In this document: positions 7,712 through 28,040 of the stretch, piece by piece
Numbering within the stretch: position 1 is the stretch's first letter
Layout of the letters: each line of letters opens with the position of its first letter
Virus record (IMG/VR): IMGVR_UViG_2778261689_000008
Location: 1-28,040 of that record
Length of the DNA: 28,040 nt
Direction: 5' to 3' (one strand)
Source of the DNA: a virus
Lineage: Duplodnaviria > Heunggongvirae > Uroviricota > Caudoviricetes
The notes under the pieces: generated by a model
The model's database searches: none
The model's input: the letters and a program-made list of their open reading frames with translations, nothing else
Told to the model about the DNA's origin: nothing
Program-made: the position numbers and the translations under genes

Positions 7712-9619
7712 TTATCGTGGAAAACGAAAAGGGGAATACCCCACATCGTGCGTGATTTTCATCAGGGGATCGGCTTTGCCCGGTACATCAATTATCTTCA
7801 TACCTGGCGGAGCATTCTCGAACGTGACTTTCAGCTCGCTGTGCTGTGTCATGGAAGAAGATGGATTCAACAGCGGAACATTGGGTTTGTACTGACTCAG
7901 GCTGGCCTGATACTGCTCGTACTCTTTACGATCAAAAAAAGGCGTCCAGTCTGAAGCCAGAAACAGCCCTTTATTATCCAGCCAGTTAACCGTATCTTCA
8001 GGAACAACACTTTCCAGAGTATCTTTAACCGGCTCATACATCAGGGTTCCCAGAAAACCATATACCCCGGCCTTCCCGATAAAGCCGCGGCCTTTCCCCA
8101 TCAATCCCGTTTCTGCCGATACCTTCCCCAGCGTACGCATCTCTCTGGTCACTGCGGTAATGGATTTGGTAACGTCAGCAACCCATTTGGTTGCCATAAA
8201 CAGGGCAATCGCTTTCAGAACAGTTTCCCATCCCCCCATCGCCTGCGCCGTTTCATCCACCACGTGCCAGACTTTTTTTATGACAGGACCTACGGTTTCC
8301 CAGTTATCAATAATGAGGTAAGCGCCACCAACCAGAAGAGCAATCAGCCCCTTAGCAGGCGTCATATTCATCACACCGCCGAGAACTTTCATAATTCTGG
8401 ACAAAGAGCCTGCAGCGGCTCCCACCGTCAGTAAGGCCAGACCGATTTTAGCAATGGTCTTAACGAGCTCCGGGTTTTCACGGACAAACGTTCTCACTTC
8501 CTCAAGGAGCGGTTTTACCGCTTCAAGACCATCATTAACCTCAGGAAGAAACGTTTCCCCCAGCGTGGAAGAAATGGCATCAAGTTGATTTTGCAGAAGT
8601 AAAAGCTGGTTTTCCGTCGTCGCTGCCCTCGAAGCATATTCCTTCTGCATCGAACTGCCATACTGCTGGGAATCCGCAACCCGCCTGAAGTTGGTACGCA
8701 ACAAATCAAGGTTAGTCAGCAGAGGTGCTATCGCGCCCAGAGACTCTTTCCCGAACAGGGCATTCAGCACAGCTGCCTGTTTTTCTTTGGGCACTTTAGC
8801 CATCGCATCCAGTACAGACAGCATGGTTCCCCGGGCATCTTTCTGCATATCAGCAGCTAATTTCTTCGGATTGATCCGCAGAAAACGTAATGCCTGTTTC
8901 TGCGATTTTGTCGCGGAATTTCCCGCGGTCAGGGAAAGCATGAAGTTCTTGATCCCTGTGGCGGCAATTTCTGACTCCACGCCCATCCCGGCAATGGTTG
9001 CCCCCATTGCCGCGATTTCGCCGGAAGCCACACCTGCAACACCACCTAAAGGACCAATACGCGTAACAATATCGGAGATTTTCTTCGCATTCGCCGGGCC
9101 GGTATTACCAAGGTAGTTGATTTTGTCAGCCAGCCCGGCCACTTCATCCTGCGTCATATTAAACGCAGTACGCCACTGGGCCATCATCTGCCCGGACTCT
9201 TCAGCCGTGGTATCAAAGGCCACGCCCATCTTCACCGCATCAGTGGCAAACTGCATCAGTTCATCACGTGCAATCCCGGCCTGACCGCCAGCCGCCACAA
9301 TTTCCGCGATCCCGTCTGCAGACATGGGAAGCTCAGTAGACAAAGCGCGTACCTGCTCCGTCATGGCCTTAAACGCATCCGGCGTATCCAGACCGTCTAC
9401 CACTTTGCGGACATCAGCCATCTTCGATTCAAGGGTGATGGCTGATTTTACAGGGAGTGCCAGTGCCCCCATTATTGCAGTACCCGCCCCGGCAGCGCCC
9501 AGAGCAAGGCTGGAGACTTCTTTCTGAAACCCCTTAAGCTGACGCTGCATACCTTTAAGCGGGCCGGACAGCCTGTCAACGGCGGTGATGATGGCTTTCA
9601 GCTGAAAATTATCAGCCAT
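7712..9619 (-). CDS. Tail tape measure protein
   Basis: 635 aa, Ala/Gly-rich and helical with hydrophobic central segments; GAGGAG RBS before the ATG; located between chaperone and baseplate genes. Confidence 0.8.
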   Translation of the reverse strand: MADNFQLKAIITAVDRLSGPLKGMQRQLKGFQKEVSSLALGAAGAGTAIMGALALPVKSAITLESKMADVRKVVDGLDTPDAFKAMTEQVRALSTELPMSADGIAEIVAAGGQAGIARDELMQFATDAVKMGVAFDTTAEESGQMMAQWRTAFNMTQDEVAGLADKINYLGNTGPANAKKISDIVTRIGPLGGVAGVASGEIAAMGATIAGMGVESEIAATGIKNFMLSLTAGNSATKSQKQALRFLRINPKKLAADMQKDARGTMLSVLDAMAKVPKEKQAAVLNALFGKESLGAIAPLLTNLDLLRTNFRRVADSQQYGSSMQKEYASRAATTENQLLLLQNQLDAISSTLGETFLPEVNDGLEAVKPLLEEVRTFVRENPELVKTIAKIGLALLTVGAAAGSLSRIMKVLGGVMNMTPAKGLIALLVGGAYLIIDNWETVGPVIKKVWHVVDETAQAMGGWETVLKAIALFMATKWVADVTKSITAVTREMRTLGKVSAETGLMGKGRGFIGKAGVYGFLGTLMYEPVKDTLESVVPEDTVNWLDNKGLFLASDWTPFFDRKEYEQYQASLSQYKPNVPLLNPSSSMTQHSELKVTFENAPPGMKIIDVPGKADPLMKITHDVGYSPFRFPR

Positions 9620-23846: not shown

Positions 23847-24009
23847 GATTCCTCCTTGCTGCCAGTCGCAACCATTTTTTATCAACCAGGCTGGCGGTAT
23901 ATCCGAGCAGAGTTGGTATTTCGGATGGCTTCAGCTCAGGTTTACGCTTACGACGATTTGGTACTTTGTAGATGTGTCCGTTCATGACACGAATAAGCGG
24001 TGTAGCCAT
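23839..24009 (-). CDS. ninE: NinE-like small protein (56 aa; not in the supplied track)
   Basis: Translates [56 protein letters not shown]; 1-nt overlap with the ybcN stop; overlaps the ybcO start. Confidence 0.6.
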   Translation of the reverse strand: MATPLIRVMNGHIYKVPNRRKRKPELKPSEIPTLLGYTASLVDKKWLRLAARRNHG

Positions 24010-24464
24010 TACGCCTCCTGCTTGTCGCGCAGCAGCTGGAACTCGCAGCTCTGCGGAATAGTCAGGTGGCAGCCAATATTCATCGCCCAGGCTTCAACCT
24101 TACACAGGAAGACATACATCTCTCCGGTATCGAGATCGGAGGTATGACGTAATGACTGAATGGTGGTGATTTCACCGGTTACGACATCAACCAGTTCTTT
24201 GGTTTCATAACCGAGATAAGTGTGTTTGAGTGCATCTTTTACCCATACTGCAGTAGCGAACGTTTTCCCCCTGCTGATGAGGTATTCGCTGATTTCGCTG
24301 TACCACATGTGGCTGAGTGCATTCTGGGAAAGACTGCGTCTCTCGCGCCACGGTTTAAGCACCATGCGAAAGCATTTTCCGTCCTCCAGATAAGGCTGGA
24401 TCTGCTGACCGATAGCGGTGAAGTTACCGCGATGCAATTTGATACCGTCTTGTGGGAGGTTCAC
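24009..24464 (-). CDS. ybcN: YbcN-like nin-region protein
   Basis: 151 aa; GTG start with GGAGGTGA upstream; position and size match DLP12 ybcN. Confidence 0.7.
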
Positions 24465-24507
24465 GCTTCACCTCCGCAGAGGTCAAACGCTAGATGCAAA
24501 GAATTGC

Positions 24508-24626
24508 AGGTGCATTTCTGCATCTGTGAAGGGAGAAGAGAGTTTGGATTGTATGTGCGCATAAACGTCCCCGTTTAGCGCAGAAGTCACCAGAGTTGTT
24601 CAGGCTCCGATGACATGATTATGGCG
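24508..24626. repeat. 119-bp direct repeat, copy A (upstream of ybcN)
   Basis: About 110 of 119 positions identical to 26508-26626 with no indels; contains a near-palindromic 18-mer (24508-24525) and a 10-bp-stem hairpin (24557-24581). Confidence 0.85.
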
Positions 24627-24651
24627 AGTTGATTATCGCAAATCAAAGGTT

Positions 24652-25008
24652 TTAATTGTGCTTTATTCCTTCAAGCGTTGCCTTCATACCAACCAAAGAA
24701 ATGTTTAGCTCTCCAACTTTCTCAGGGCTATATAATTCAGAATGAAGCCAATATTCTGATTTATCTAAACATCTTTTAGCCAGCTCTCGATCAAAGTCTA
24801 CGACTTGGGAAGACGCTTCATACCAAAGCCTATAAAGTTTTTCTTCTTCGTTTGGGTTATTAGGCTCACCACGTTTTAATTTTTCAGTATATAAAATTGT
24901 TGAACAAATCGCAGGAGTTAATCCAGTGATTGCCCTCTGCCGCAGATCGGATTTGTTTGTTATCCACCCTAACAGACGATCTCCCATCCATGTGATAATT
25001 GTATCCAT
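24652..25008 (-). CDS. AT-rich orphan protein, 118 aa, no recognised family
   Basis: Track ORF, visibly AT-rich relative to flanking phage genes; GAAGGG 9 nt upstream of the ATG. Confidence 0.55.
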   Translation of the reverse strand: MDTIITWMGDRLLGWITNKSDLRQRAITGLTPAICSTILYTEKLKRGEPNNPNEEEKLYRLWYEASSQVVDFDRELAKRCLDKSEYWLHSELYSPEKVGELNISLVGMKATLEGIKHN

Positions 25009-25469
25009 GCTTTAGCCCTTCTTAGTAAATAGTGTGTAGGGCGACTGAAGGACCGAGTTTATGCTTTTTCGCATTGCTTTCAGTTAGTACACCGGTATCG
25101 CACCGGAAACAATCCTACGGCAAATTGGTTGTCTGACCTCTCGGTTTTTCGTGCATTAACCGATACCCACTACAGTCTCGGCGAAAGCTGCACACCCCCA
25201 GGGTGTACTGGTAGCACTCGGCACAGCCTAGCACGCCACTTTCTTCTCACTATCCAGTCTAATTTTATCCCCTAGTCAGACACTCAGATGTAGTGCTCCG
25301 CAGCGGCATGCGGGGGAATACAAAAACTCGGACAAAATTGGGCCCTCCTTTTTGAATCACTCGCGGGGATGTAGTTATTAATACATGGAAAAAGATCTGT
25401 TTTCAAATCCAACATTATATGGTTTCAATACCACGGGGTGGCTATGTGTTTCTCATTGTTAATTGGAAT
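25009..25469 (-). other. ORF-free 460-bp region rich in short stems; candidate structured non-coding RNA or regulatory region
   Basis: No ORF of 60 aa or more on either strand and only 15-20 codon ORFs with weak RBSs by manual scan; multiple short inverted repeats (ccggtatcgcaccgg, acaccc-cca-gggtgt, ccgca-gcggca-tgcgg, tcggtt...aaccga, gggccc). Confidence 0.3.
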
Positions 25470-26078
25470 CTACTGTAATCGATCCGAACGTAAATGCGGC
25501 AAAACTCGACTCCACTTATCATCCTGCCACGGCCGGAATTTTACATGCGCCGTTTCTCTGGCAAGGATTGCTCGCGCCTTGCTGAGTATCAGGGGATATT
25601 CCTGACTGATAGAAGTAAAGCGACCGGCTTCGCGGTGCTCCGCAACCTGAAGAAGTGGAGTAACGTTCTGGCAGGCGATTAACATCGTATCACTTGCTCG
25701 CCATAACCAGGCGAGTGTGCAAAGTTCGTTATCAGTGAATTGTTTTGTGATTGGTGATTGTTGAACTTCTCGATCGAGAATATCCAGCACCCAGCGGCGG
25801 AATTCTTTGGCCACAGGAGTACGAGCAAACATGGCGATCAAATGGGCTCCGCGAAGGCTAAATACTCGAGACTCCTGCATTCCACGAGGGGTGGTCACTT
25901 TGACCACCCTTGTCATCATATCTGTGAATTCATCTGAGTGCCGAGAGTAAATGCGCTGAACTGCTTTATCGTCCGCATATTCCAGTGCTAAACCAACTTC
26001 AGTGGCAGTAAGCCAAATTCTGTTATTGTGGCAAATCGGGGTAAACGTCGTTTTGTGGAATGCTAATTGAGTAGTCAT
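25470..26078 (-). CDS. Bro-N / antirepressor-like protein (tentative)
   Basis: 202 aa; the N-terminal half (FHKTTFTPICHNNRIWLTATEVGLALEYADDKA...) resembles Bro-N/KilA-N antirepressor domains. Confidence 0.55.
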   Translation of the reverse strand: MTTQLAFHKTTFTPICHNNRIWLTATEVGLALEYADDKAVQRIYSRHSDEFTDMMTRVVKVTTPRGMQESRVFSLRGAHLIAMFARTPVAKEFRRWVLDILDREVQQSPITKQFTDNELCTLAWLWRASDTMLIACQNVTPLLQVAEHREAGRFTSISQEYPLILSKARAILARETAHVKFRPWQDDKWSRVLPHLRSDRLQ

Positions 26079-26233
26079 AGTATCACCTCATCAGGTTAAC
26101 CATCACCACCAACGACGCCAATCGACTGGTGGTGAACTGTGTAAGGTTGGCGTAACCGGCTACTCAAACCCGGCGCTTCCGAAGAAGCCCTCACACAGCC
26201 CACCATAATTTGGGCATAGCCGTGCTTAGCGCA

Positions 26234-26256
26234 CAAAAAAACCGCTTAACGCGGTA
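26234..26256 (-). terminator. Intrinsic terminator-like hairpin with U7
   Basis: Minus strand: ACCGC-GUUAA-GCGGU followed by UUUUUUUG; lies between the small hydrophobic ORF and the Bro-N-like gene. Confidence 0.4.
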
Positions 26257-26341
26257 TGCGTTGAGTAGTATCCCGGGACGCCAATCCCGTGTGCCGATTT
26301 TGCGGCAACGCACAGAATATAGCGCCGGATAAATCATGTCG

Positions 26342-26431
26342 TCAACCCCAGTAAATGGACACCATGATGATCACAGCCATAGCTGCTACAACAGTTACAA
26401 CTACCTCAGGCCAAAACATAACGATTTCCAT
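26342..26431 (-). CDS. Small hydrophobic peptide, 29 aa (trimmed from the 82-aa track ORF)
   Basis: MEIVMFWPEVVVTVVAAMAVIIMVSIYWG with AAAGGTGAT immediately before the ATG; the longer track ORF would start inside repeat B, which is non-coding in copy A. Confidence 0.35.
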   Translation of the reverse strand: MEIVMFWPEVVVTVVAAMAVIIMVSIYWG

Positions 26432-26507
26432 ATCACCTTTAGCCGCCAGACGAATAGAGACTCCCAATTCTGGCTGTCGAAGTAAAACACCGAATGTAAA
26501 AAATCGT

Positions 26508-26626
26508 AGGTGCATTTCTGCATCTGTGAATGGAGATGAGAGTTTGGATTGTGTGTGCGCATAAACGTCCCCGTTTAGCGCAGAAGTCACCGGAGTTTTT
26601 TAGGCTCCGATGACAATATTATGGCT
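26508..26626. repeat. 119-bp direct repeat, copy B (exactly 2000 bp from copy A)
   Basis: See copy A; the hairpin (26557-26581) and the near-palindromic 18-mer (26508-26525) are conserved without change. Confidence 0.85.
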
Positions 26627-26709
26627 TTTTTATTTCTAAATTCAAAACTTGAAAATATTAAGATTCGCTTTTAAATCAACCCTAAACAACTGAAGATAAC
26701 ATCTGATAG

Positions 26710-27669
26710 TCAGCTAATTGCAAAGATATTAAAAATAACTTTAGGGAGTGCGAAAGATGAAATAAAAAGCACAACCATAAAAATGGCATGCTTAATAAAT
26801 GATGAGCTTGTAAAAAAAGCTCCTCCCTTGCTAATTCCTGCCATAAAAACAAAGATAAAGCTAATTAAGCACGACCATATCACTAACAAAACTGAGATTG
26901 ACATGCTTAAAGACATATCGCGAGAAAATACGTTTACTGAAATAGAAATGAAGGTAAAGAAAGAAGCAAATAAAGCAATGACACCCAGCATTGAGTTCCT
27001 TGCTGTAATTACTTCCGATTCAAAGCTTTTAACTTTCTCATGTATATCTTTTTCAGCATTTGATAATGTTGCATCAAATTGCTCAATCTTTGCAGTTTGC
27101 TGAGATAATGAAGACATTACCTTACCTATTTTTCTTTTAGTATCATTAATATTCTTTTTGCTCTTATTCAACTCTTGCGAAAAATTGGTTAGTTGATCAT
27201 TGATATTTTTCCAGAGGATGTTATCAATATCACTTTTTGTATATTTTTTTACATTCTCTTTATTAAAAGAAATTGTAGATTCAGAATTATTATTAACAAA
27301 GTAATTAGATAAAATGGCATTAGAGACAGTATTATCCATCACCGGCACAGTTGCTTTTGAACTGTATTTTATAGCTTCATGCAACATTTCTTTTTCATTA
27401 ACAAAAAGAGAGGTTTTTATTAAGTTTTGTGATGCCGCGTCTTTGATAGATATACTTTCCCGCTCTTTATTTGAAGCTGTTGCAGTTTTATTATCTATCT
27501 GCAAATTACTAATTTTTTGCACCCCTCCTGTATACGTAGATGTACTATTCGATACTTGTGAATTAGAATAAAGTGAATGATGCGCAGTTCTTTTTGCCAT
27601 GTCATCGTTGACTATAGCATTATTTTTTGCAGTTCTTTTTATATCCTTTTTATTATCATCCTTATTCAT
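26710..27669 (-). CDS. AT-rich protein, 319 aa: Asn/Ser/Lys-rich coiled-coil N-terminal region plus three C-terminal transmembrane helices; candidate exclusion/abortive-infection effector
   Basis: Track ORF; strongly AT-rich; GAGGTG RBS; C-terminal hydrophobic segments LGVIALFASFFTFISISVNVF, SISVLLVIWSCLISFIFVFMAGI, AIFMVVLFISSFALPKVIFNIFAI; 14-bp gap to the upstream ORF. Confidence 0.65.
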   Translation of the reverse strand: MNKDDNKKDIKRTAKNNAIVNDDMAKRTAHHSLYSNSQVSNSTSTYTGGVQKISNLQIDNKTATASNKERESISIKDAASQNLIKTSLFVNEKEMLHEAIKYSSKATVPVMDNTVSNAILSNYFVNNNSESTISFNKENVKKYTKSDIDNILWKNINDQLTNFSQELNKSKKNINDTKRKIGKVMSSLSQQTAKIEQFDATLSNAEKDIHEKVKSFESEVITARNSMLGVIALFASFFTFISISVNVFSRDMSLSMSISVLLVIWSCLISFIFVFMAGISKGGAFFTSSSFIKHAIFMVVLFISSFALPKVIFNIFAIS

Positions 27670-27683
27670 TCAGCCACCTCACA

Positions 27684-28040
27684 TTACTGAATTTCATTCA
27701 CTTTACTTAAAAAGGCTTTTTTTGTTTTTTCTGCGGTATATTTATCTTTAAATATAAAACTCTCGATTGTATTCACATCGATCTGTTTCACTAGCATTGG
27801 TTGTTCTCTGACAATATCATATCCTGACATAATCGACAAATGACAATTAAATATGGACTGCTCAAACTCGAATTTTTTATTATACATTAAATTAATATCT
27901 TCAATTATTTCGCTATCATTCTGCATGTTGTTACTAAGATAGTTTTTAACAATCTCTTTGTTTGGGTTGTTGTTTAATTCCGCCTTAACGGCCACCAAGC
28001 CCTGAGAGATCCCCTCATAATTTCCCCAAAGCGTAACCAT
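27684..28040 (-). CDS. AT-rich hypothetical protein; N-terminus may lie beyond the window edge
   Basis: Track ORF reaching the last base of the window; Asn/Lys/Ile-rich; operon-like spacing with the 319-aa gene. Confidence 0.5.
   Translation of the reverse strand: MVTLWGNYEGISQGLVAVKAELNNNPNKEIVKNYLSNNMQNDSEIIEDINLMYNKKFEFEQSIFNCHLSIMSGYDIVREQPMLVKQIDVNTIESFIFKDKYTAEKTKKAFLSKVNEIQ

What the first reader, a model, noticed from the sequence alone, without database searches (positions are those of the whole stretch)
24652..25008. AT-rich 118-aa orphan gene next to the ORF-free region
The ORF is clearly more AT-rich than the flanking nin genes and I recognise no domain in it. Its compositional contrast and position inside the repeat-bracketed cassette suggest a horizontally acquired moron, the kind of locus where prophages carry exclusion or defence cargo.
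Basis: partly seen in the sequence, partly recalled or inferred. Interest (0 to 1): 0.5.

Follow-up and report, generated by a model that had tools for sequence, protein, structure and literature searches.

The report
Prophage cargo gene behind structured RNA
The 118-residue ORF is a real, selected, AT-rich accessory gene of lambda-like prophages with unknown function, and the "empty" DNA in front of it is an unannotated, strongly structured ~330-nt RNA gene that marks a slot where related phages carry different small cargo genes.

Summary
An ATG-started 118-aa ORF lies at 24652-25008 (-). Its GC is 38% (GC3 31%) against 47-53% for its neighbours, and it sits inside a cassette bracketed by a 156-nt direct repeat. 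It is not an orphan. It evolves under purifying selection (dN/dS 0.06-0.24), occurs in 158 of 5426 complete E. coli genomes, and a profile finds 349 distant relatives. It has no Pfam, NCBIfam, PADLOC or PDB match, and the model is a plain four-helix bundle. In other bacteria the same domain is the N-terminal module of proteins that end in TIR, multi-transmembrane or hydrolase-like parts.

The neighbouring "ORF-free region" is a ~330-nt RNA gene (25370-25039, -). It has 95 predicted pairs, 18 of them with compensatory changes, a conserved promoter-like site, and in several lineages its own terminator. Between this RNA and ninB, different phages carry different AT-rich unknown genes; orf118 is one such cargo.

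Function is unproven.

The parts
24652..25008 (-). orf118: a 118-aa soluble protein modelled as a four-helix bundle. Member of an uncharacterised family with no Pfam entry. Conserved positions are A33, T37, Y40, E55, W62, A65, L76, A77, C80, K83 and W87.
   Evidence: ORF. Homologues. dN/dS 0.06-0.24. AF2 pLDDT 75.9 with 4 helices. No predicted TM segment.
25009..25038 (-). Short junction between the RNA and orf118. It carries a Shine-Dalgarno-like AAGAAGGG (25023-25016) and no terminator.
   Evidence: Sequence. The fold is not different from shuffles (z -1.2, 0.2, 1.2 in three lineages), whereas the Klebsiella version has a strong terminator (z -3.9).
25039..25370 (-). Conserved structured RNA of about 330 nt, in two domains and 18 helices. 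It is not in Rfam and is not annotated in any E. coli genome.
   Evidence: Alignment. RNAalifold gives 95 pairs, 18 compensatory. 98% of cells are paired against 33-46% in slid controls, and no shuffle of 500 reaches the observed value. No Rfam hit. nhmmer places it at 25370-25039. Present in 159 of 5426 genomes, with nothing annotated under it in any of the 30 records listed.
25377..25406 (-). Inferred sigma-70-type promoter of the RNA: -35 TTGAAA at 25406-25401 and -10 TATTAA/ATTAAT at 25383-25377. The likely start is near A25370.
   Evidence: The TTG and the T.AAT positions, with their spacing, are invariant across 8 diverse loci although the surrounding sequence differs. Conservation begins abruptly here. 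The simple consensus scan does not call it, so this is an inference.
25470..26078 (-). Antirepressor (Ant; Bro-N plus P22_AR_C domains). It shares the repeat-bracketed cassette but is not an obligate partner of orf118.
   Evidence: Pfam and PHROG matches. Most genomes carry ant without the RNA and orf118, or the reverse.
26125..26210 (-). C4 antisense RNA, the P1 immI-type regulator of ant.
   Evidence: Rfam RF01695, 74.8 bits against a gathering score of 45.
26235..26307 (-). isrK-like Hfq-binding RNA, which also carries the a1/b1 target-like sequence.
   Evidence: Rfam RF01394, 58.7 bits. c4-a1b1 scores 39.6 bits, below threshold.
24479..24634 (.). Proximal copy of the 156-nt direct repeat. 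It corresponds to the phage 82 orf33 region with its putative promoter, upstream of ninB.
26479..26634 (.). Distal copy of the 156-nt direct repeat, 86% identical to the proximal copy.
24009..24464 (-). ninB/orf151-type recombination mediator. It is the conserved right-hand anchor of the cargo slot.
   Evidence: PHROG 72, E 1.9e-51. Phage 82 annotation.

Best explanation
orf118 is a genuine, translated accessory gene of lambdoid prophages. It is one of at least six alternative AT-rich cargo genes that occupy the slot between a conserved ~330-nt structured RNA gene and ninB. In this lineage the RNA's terminator is missing. orf118 is therefore most likely transcribed as the 3' extension of that RNA from the RNA's own promoter, and also by early-rightward read-through during lytic growth. 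The protein is a soluble four-helix bundle with no catalytic or membrane part. It consists only of a domain that elsewhere is the N-terminal module of TIR, multi-transmembrane and hydrolase-like effector proteins. I infer that it acts by binding rather than by catalysis, in phage-host conflict. The reading I favour is a domain-only decoy or inhibitor (counter-defence or host takeover) made early in infection. What is shown: the gene is real, it is cargo in a hotspot, it has an RNA neighbour, and the domain homology holds. What is inferred: co-transcription, the promoter, and the whole functional reading.
For: Real gene: dN/dS 0.06-0.24, 21 close clusters and 349 distant relatives. Cargo in a hotspot: the RNA is followed by orf118, or by a 183-aa, a 178-aa two-TM, a 95-aa plus 162-aa, or a 177-aa protein, or by nothing, before ninB or its positional equivalent. 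All of these are AT-rich and have no Pfam or PADLOC hit. RNA and co-transcription: the RNA structure is supported by covariation, there is a conserved promoter-like site, and terminators are present in other lineages but absent before orf118. Binding-only protein: the model is a four-helix bundle with no predicted TM segment. Domain homology to effector-fused proteins: hhalign probability 99.1%, E 6e-19. The fusions are to TIR (PF13676, 3.8e-18), to 2-4 TM helices in at least 10 representatives, and to a region like the N-terminus of PDC-S60. One fusion lies beside GmrSD and another on an ArdC-bearing element. Use during lytic growth: phage homologues at 35-51% identity lie in early-left operons, often overlapping a DNA_pol3_theta gene and near DNA methylases, xis and int. 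All copies point the same way as early transcription.
Against: There is no experimental or expression data. No similarity to any known anti-defence or defence protein was found. I could not show that Enterobacteria encode an effector carrying this domain that could serve as a target (one search was uninformative). Most family members (116 of 148) are stand-alone, and I sampled contexts for only a handful. An own promoter, AT-richness and membrane-protein alternatives in the same slot fit lysogen-expressed defence cargo equally well. The gene is deleted or decayed in about 38% of E. coli carriers, so it is dispensable.
Confidence: 0.35

Rival explanations
1. orf118 is a lysogen-expressed defence or superinfection-exclusion cargo that protects the host from other phages. 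It would be driven by the promoter of the upstream RNA.
For: It sits in a variable hotspot whose alternative AT-rich cargos include membrane proteins. A promoter-like site lies upstream. The composition is atypical. The domain is fused to TIR and TM effectors, and one fusion neighbours GmrSD. One stand-alone relative lies in the lysis-terminase slot of a prophage that also carries KwaA.
Against: The protein has no effector, nuclease, NTPase or membrane part. PADLOC gives no hit. More distant phage copies are embedded in early-left operons, translationally coupled to a theta-like gene and without a promoter of their own, so they would be silent in lysogens. The gene is a frequent pseudogene.
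Confidence: 0.25
2. orf118 is a replication- or recombination-associated accessory factor. It would bind a host or phage replisome or repair component, working alongside the P1 Hot-like theta homologue or the nin recombination genes.
For: A DNA_pol3_theta homologue lies immediately upstream, with overlapping start and stop codons in several cases, in most of the distant phage loci examined (L066-L070, L107, L109-L112, L114). In the window and in L114 the gene directly precedes ninB.
Against: This rests on neighbourhood only. In the window's subfamily the theta gene is absent from the window. The domain's fusions are to TIR, TM and hydrolase modules, not to DNA-metabolism domains. No nucleic-acid-binding motif was recognised.
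Confidence: 0.12
3. orf118 and the upstream RNA form an obligate pair. This could be a ribonucleoprotein, a type III-like toxin-antitoxin in which the RNA neutralises the protein, or an RNA leader acting as a riboswitch-like regulator dedicated to orf118.
For: The layout of promoter, structured RNA, no terminator, then a small protein resembles ToxIN-type loci. In E. coli the two nearly always co-occur (159 against 158 genomes). Every locus whose orf118 is at least 69% identical carries the RNA.
Against: The RNA occurs with its own terminator and unrelated downstream genes in several lineages. orf118-like genes at 51% identity or below never have the RNA nearby. The RNA stays at least 98% identical where orf118 is deleted or decayed. 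There are no tandem repeats. The junction is unstructured.
Confidence: 0.08
4. orf118 is a non-functional leftover ORF.
For: About 38% of E. coli carriers have an internally deleted, decayed copy. The Shine-Dalgarno sequence is weak in other lineages.
Against: There is strong purifying selection across lineages with saturated synonymous sites. The motif is conserved across 349 relatives. The gene is intact in the isolated phages IdasGreatGrand and Turner.
Confidence: 0.03

Closest known systems
Morons and accessory-gene hotspots of temperate phages (the lambda ren/ninA position; the P2 and P4 defence hotspots). Recalled from my own knowledge of the literature.
   Same: The gene is present or absent among close relatives. 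It has atypical AT-rich composition and a variable slot between conserved anchors, here the RNA and ninB. A promoter lies upstream.
   Different: No terminator follows orf118. The promoter belongs to a 330-nt structured RNA rather than to the gene itself. None of the cargos matches a known defence family.
P1 immI (c4-icd-ant) and the Gifsy-1 isrK-orf45-anrP-isrJ module (PMC4825925).
   Same: The upstream half of the repeat-bracketed cassette has isrK, the C4 RNA and a Bro-N/P22_AR_C antirepressor in that order.
   Different: The RNA and orf118 are a separate module. They occur without isrK, C4 and ant in most genomes, and the reverse also holds. No isrJ match was found.
Domain-only decoys and effector-associated adaptor domains: EADs of NTP-dependent conflict systems, CARD-only and PYD-only proteins, and phage sponges such as Tad and Acb. 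From my own knowledge, offered as an analogy only.
   Same: It is a small stand-alone helical domain, homologous to the non-effector N-terminal module of TIR and TM effector proteins, and it is carried by a virus.
   Different: No Pfam EAD family matches. No partner NTPase, ligand or binding has been shown. Membership is not established.
Type III toxin-antitoxin loci (ToxIN, AbiQ). From my own knowledge.
   Same: The gene order is promoter, non-coding RNA, then a small protein, on a mobile element.
   Different: The RNA is a single 330-nt multi-helix fold, not tandem repeats. The protein is a helical bundle, not a ToxN-type RNase. The two parts are separable in evolution.
Large structured phage-associated RNAs of unknown function (GOLLD, ROOL, HEARO and similar). 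From my own knowledge and Rfam.
   Same: It is a long, ornate, covariation-supported RNA in prophages with no known function.
   Different: No Rfam model matches. It is shorter (~330 nt), was found only in prophages and phages of Enterobacterales-type hosts, and has a fixed position upstream of the nin genes.

Membership tests
Moron (independently expressed prophage accessory gene) | Present in some genomes but absent from closely related phages | tested here: met
   Phage 82, 4A7 and others have a single copy of the repeat and no cassette. Only 158 of 5426 E. coli genomes carry orf118 DNA.
Moron (independently expressed prophage accessory gene) | Nucleotide composition differs from the flanking phage genes | tested here: met
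   GC 0.381 and GC3 0.311, against 0.47-0.53 and 0.44-0.60 in the flanks.
Moron (independently expressed prophage accessory gene) | Own promoter upstream and own terminator downstream | tested here: inconclusive
   A conserved promoter-like site exists, but it lies upstream of the RNA, 360 nt before the ATG, and the consensus scan does not call it. No terminator lies between orf118 and ninB.
Moron (independently expressed prophage accessory gene) | Expressed from the repressed prophage | not testable with these tools
   This needs RNA-seq or a Northern blot of a lysogen.
Known anti-phage defence proteins (PADLOC-DB v2) | Significant match to a defence-system HMM | tested here: not met
   0 families for orf118. 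Hits among distant relatives cover only their TIR or other C-terminal parts.
Type III toxin-antitoxin (ToxIN-like) | Antitoxin RNA made of tandem direct repeats | tested here: not met
   No tandem repeats in 24400-26700. The RNA is a single multi-helix fold.
Type III toxin-antitoxin (ToxIN-like) | Obligate co-occurrence of RNA and protein | tested here: not met
   The RNA occurs without orf118. orf118-like genes occur without the RNA.
HEPN domain | Conserved Rx4-6H motif in a four-helix bundle | tested here: not met
   The family's conserved residues are A33, T37, Y40, E55, W62, A65, C80, K83 and W87. There is no conserved R...H pair. No Pfam HEPN hit.
Effector-associated domains (EAD1-11) or Death-like adaptors | Match to the Pfam EAD models | tested here: not met
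   No Pfam family for orf118, or for the domain in 61 relatives.
Effector-associated domains (EAD1-11) or Death-like adaptors | The same domain on both an effector and a partner STAND/NTPase in one locus | not tested
   Only three contexts of fused proteins were read, and none showed an NTPase partner.
P1 immI / Gifsy-1 isrK-anrP module | C4-type RNA plus target sites upstream of an antirepressor gene | tested here: met
   This applies to the upstream half of the cassette only: isrK 58.7 bits, C4 74.8 bits, Ant with Bro-N and P22_AR_C. orf118 is not part of this module.
Any Rfam family (for the upstream RNA) | Covariance-model match | tested here: not met
   Nothing in 25009-25469 at the gathering threshold or at E up to 5.

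The most novel reading that the evidence does not exclude
The ~330-nt structured RNA and the gene behind it form a previously undescribed RNA-led cargo platform of lambdoid phages. A conserved, autonomously transcribed RNA controls or accompanies a swappable conflict gene. On this reading orf118 would be the first example of a phage-borne, domain-only copy of a new sensor or adaptor domain of TIR and membrane abortive-infection effectors, acting as a decoy.
Probability: 0.15. Interest if true: 0.8.

Novelty: new variant of a known kind. Interest (0 to 1): 0.55.

Why it matters
There are two leads, and both can be tested in E. coli with the isolated phages IdasGreatGrand and Turner.

1. orf118 defines a widespread protein domain that has no Pfam entry and no name. 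The domain is attached to TIR and membrane effectors, and phages carry it on its own. This is the pattern expected for a sensor or adaptor of immune effectors and for a viral decoy of it.

2. The supposedly empty DNA next to orf118 is a large RNA supported by covariation. It is absent from Rfam and from E. coli genome annotation, although it is present in about 3% of complete E. coli genomes. It marks a cargo hotspot filled with unknown genes. Large structured RNAs of unknown function are rare in so well-studied a host.

Tried and rejected
Sequence and fold searches for orf118:
- Pfam, NCBIfam and PADLOC found nothing for orf118.
- A PDB profile search gave 0 hits.
- Foldseek against BFVD gave nothing significant.
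- The afdb50 library was unavailable.

Searches of collections:
- Two genome-contig scans for the RNA gave either nothing or five hits in unrelated MAGs with different spacing, which I take to be chance.
- The search for related loci with the broad alignment failed.
- A second protein search with the effector-fused domain returned too little to tell which taxa carry such effectors.

Ideas about the RNA and its junction that I rejected:
- A hairpin sequestering the Shine-Dalgarno sequence at the RNA-orf118 junction. The folds are no better than shuffles.
- A small ORF inside the RNA. A 61-aa frame is open in some lineages, but no such frame is open in the window, where I read TAG in place of CAG in the sequence.
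- A long-range GUCUGAC/GUCAGAC pseudoknot. Both motifs were part of my search pattern, and the variants in L121 and L122 give mismatches rather than covariation.

Ideas about orf118 that I rejected:
- A HEPN motif in orf118 (absent).
- A type III toxin-antitoxin (no repeats, and the parts are separable).
- Membership of the isrK-C4-ant module (the parts are separable).

Literature searches found nothing on this RNA or this protein.

Full report
**Setting.** The window is a lambdoid prophage whose genes run on the minus strand. It is 99.9% identical to E. coli strain L9, NZ_CP142044.1. Reading in the direction of transcription, the order is:
- AT-rich unknown genes (28040-26710);
- a 156-nt repeat copy (26634-26479);
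- isrK (26307-26235) and the C4 antisense RNA (26210-26125);
- an antirepressor with Bro-N and P22_AR_C domains (26078-25470);
- an ORF-free stretch;
- the 118-aa ORF (25008-24652);
- the second repeat copy (24634-24479);
- ninB, ninE, a ybcO-like gene, rusA, Q, lysis genes and late genes.

**Observation.**
- Its GC is 0.381 and its GC3 0.311. ninB has 0.504/0.599 and ant 0.484/0.463.
- Pfam, NCBIfam and PADLOC recognise nothing in it. Only PHROG 12412, of unknown function, matches.
- The bracketing repeat is real: 156 nt, 86% identical, 2000 nt start to start.
- The repeat corresponds to the orf33/putative-promoter segment upstream of orf151 (ninB) in phage 82. Phages that lack the cassette have one copy of it. 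The cassette is therefore an insertion relative to those phages and could be lost again by recombination between the repeats.

**The gene is real and is not an orphan.**
- Close relatives (69-98% identity) occur in Escherichia, Enterobacter and Obesumbacterium prophages.
- Between these lineages synonymous sites are saturated (pS 0.65-0.79) while dN/dS is 0.06-0.24.
- The exact protein is seen on at least 1000 contigs and is always named 'hypothetical protein'.
- A profile search of 1.84 billion representatives gave 349 hits at E up to 1e-3. Most are stand-alone proteins of 100-150 aa (116 of the best 148).
- Across 61 diverse members the invariant or nearly invariant positions are A26, A33, T37, Y40, E55, W62, A65, L76, A77, C80, K83, W87 and I103.
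- None of the 61 members has a Pfam hit over this domain.

**Domain architecture of relatives.** In 29 of the best 148 representatives the protein is longer than 150 aa.
- The orf118-like domain is N-terminal to a TIR domain in P0068 (PF13676, E 3.8e-18).
- It precedes 2-4 predicted transmembrane helices in at least 10 proteins.
- It precedes a region matching the N-terminus of the PADLOC candidate PDC-S60 in P0055.
- It precedes a hydrolase-like region, a weak match, in P0162.
- A profile-profile comparison of the close family against 13 such fused proteins gives probability 99.1% and E 6e-19 over orf118 residues 17-114. The homology is solid.
- The TIR fusion lies next to a GmrSD restriction gene. 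A transmembrane fusion lies next to an HTH gene and an ArdC-like gene.
- Stand-alone relatives lie next to an integrase with TIR and NUDIX genes nearby, and in the lysis-terminase slot of a prophage.

This is the pattern of a recognition or adaptor module of conflict systems. The evidence is by association only.

**The ORF-free region is an RNA gene.** I aligned the ~500 nt upstream of orf118 homologues from independent loci, together with a Klebsiella phage that shares only this stretch.
- A block of about 333 nt is far better conserved than the adjacent coding sequence.
- RNAalifold on 11 diverse copies predicts 95 pairs in 18 helices, and 18 pairs show compensatory double changes.
- On that structure 98.0% of cells are paired, against 33-46% when partners are slid by 1-3 columns. 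There are 18 pairs with double changes against 2-4 in the slid controls. The covariation score is 0.245 against about 0.05. No shuffle of 500 reaches the observed values.
- Conserved G-U pairs fix the strand as the window's minus strand.
- No Rfam family matches, even at E up to 5.
- Conservation starts abruptly at about 25370. Just upstream, a TTG and a T.AAT element at promoter spacing are invariant although the surrounding sequence differs. I read this as the RNA's own promoter. It is an inference, because the simple consensus scan does not call it.
- In the lineages L003/L028/L036 (Klebsiella-type), L016, L019, L041, L053, L120 and L122-L124 the RNA ends in a clear GC-hairpin plus U-tract terminator. 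There it is a discrete non-coding RNA.
- A 61-aa frame inside it is open in some lineages, but no such frame is open in the window, where I read TAG in place of CAG. It is not coding.
- In complete E. coli genomes the RNA occurs once in 159 of 5426, and no feature is annotated under it in any of the 30 records listed.

**Relation between the RNA and orf118.** In the orf118 lineages the terminator is replaced by a short junction that is not significantly structured, followed by the ATG 30 nt after the RNA. Co-transcription is the simplest reading. The two are nevertheless separable.
- A sequence profile of the RNA finds exactly one copy in every locus whose orf118 is at least 69% identical. It finds none within several kb of any orf118-like gene at 51% identity or below.
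- The RNA occurs with other downstream genes. These are a 183-aa protein (Klebsiella), a 178-aa protein with two hydrophobic segments, a 95-aa plus 162-aa pair, a 177-aa protein, or nothing before a DUF1367 gene. In each case ninB or its positional equivalent follows.
- All these alternatives have 36-42% GC and no Pfam or PADLOC match.
- In about 60 of 158 E. coli carriers orf118 has an internal deletion of about 125-137 nt, and the remnant has drifted to about 92% identity. The RNA stays at 98% or above.

The picture is a conserved RNA and ninB flanking a swappable cargo slot, with orf118 as the commonest cargo in E. coli.

**Contexts of more distant phage copies.** Phage homologues at 35-51% identity sit in early-left operons near DNA methylases, xis and int. 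In most of the loci examined a DNA polymerase III theta (P1 Hot-like, PF06440) gene lies immediately upstream, often with overlapping stop and start codons. In L114 the order is theta-like gene, orf118-like gene, ninB. These copies have no promoter of their own and would be made during lytic growth.

**What it most likely does.**

What is shown:
- it is a selected, soluble protein consisting of a single domain;
- that domain is attached to effector modules elsewhere;
- the gene is cargo in a hotspot;
- an RNA gene lies directly upstream.

What is inferred:
- The protein works by binding, because it has no catalytic motif, no membrane segment and no effector.
- Every phage context is compatible with expression from early lytic transcription, whereas only the RNA-led context offers expression in a lysogen.
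- A replisome- or recombination-linked role suggested by the theta-like neighbour (0.12), an obligate RNA-protein pair or type III-like toxin-antitoxin (0.08), and a dead ORF (0.03) are less likely, for the reasons given under the rival explanations.

**Comparison with known systems.** Comparisons to published systems other than the Gifsy-1 paper are from my own knowledge.
- The upstream half of the cassette (isrK, C4, Ant) matches the P1 immI and Gifsy-1 isrK-anrP type of antirepressor control (PMC4825925). It is a separate module, because most genomes carry one part without the other.
- orf118 meets the moron criteria of patchy distribution and odd composition. It does not meet the criterion of a flanking terminator, and its promoter is that of the RNA.
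- It fails the membership tests for PADLOC families, HEPN, Pfam EADs and ToxIN-type toxin-antitoxins.
- The RNA belongs to no Rfam family.

**Verdict.** The gene is an ordinary kind of object, a prophage cargo gene of unknown function, in an unusual setting. The more surprising item is its neighbour, the large structured RNA that defines the cargo slot. Interest is 0.55.

Noticed in passing
window 25039-25370 (-), promoter-like site 25377-25406: An unannotated ~330-nt RNA with strong covariation support (95 pairs, 18 compensatory). It has its own promoter-like site and, in other lineages, its own terminator. It is in no Rfam family and is present in 159 of 5426 complete E. coli genomes. Its function is unknown.
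   Followed up: yes
L003 2900-3451 (-); L122 (RNA at 9116-9446 +), L119 (5915-6245 +) and L121 (4351-4024 -), with the cargo genes directly downstream of the RNA in each: The slot between the RNA and ninB holds unrelated AT-rich genes in other phages: a 183-aa protein, a 178-aa protein with two hydrophobic segments, a 95-aa plus 162-aa pair, and a 177-aa protein. None has a Pfam or PADLOC match. It looks like a cargo hotspot of unknown genes.
   Followed up: partly
window 26125-26307 (-) and 25470-26078 (-): isrK-like RNA, C4 antisense RNA and a Bro-N/P22_AR_C antirepressor in P1 immI / Gifsy-1 order. A sub-threshold c4-a1b1 target match (26270-26322) overlaps isrK.
   Followed up: partly
window 26710-27669 (-) and 27684-28040 (-): Two very AT-rich genes (GC 0.31 and 0.32) lie upstream of the distal repeat. 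One is a 319-aa protein with only weak, sub-threshold Pfam matches to coiled-coil-type families and a hydrophobic C-terminus (my reading of the sequence). The other is a partial ORF. They match only PHROGs of unknown function (25335, 24110) and have no PADLOC hit. They may be another cargo pair.
   Followed up: partly
window 24479-24634 and 26479-26634: The 156-nt direct repeat corresponds to the phage 82 orf33 segment with its putative promoter and regulator-binding site. The distal copy no longer keeps the 33-codon frame. The repeat could mediate gain or loss of the whole 1.8-kb cassette.
   Followed up: partly
L066-L070, L107, L109-L112, L114: More distant phage homologues of orf118 are almost always directly preceded by a DNA polymerase III theta (P1 Hot-like) gene, often with overlapping codons. 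This conserved gene pair has unknown meaning.
   Followed up: partly
E. coli genomes; e.g. L021, L015, L032: About 38% of E. coli carriers have a 66-aa or 60-aa remnant of orf118 (PHROG 8527), caused by an internal ~125-137-nt deletion plus drift. The upstream RNA stays nearly identical.
   Followed up: yes
NZ_CP174001.1 (43-kb E. coli plasmid record): One copy of the RNA lies on a 43-kb plasmid record, possibly a phage-plasmid. I did not examine it.
   Followed up: no
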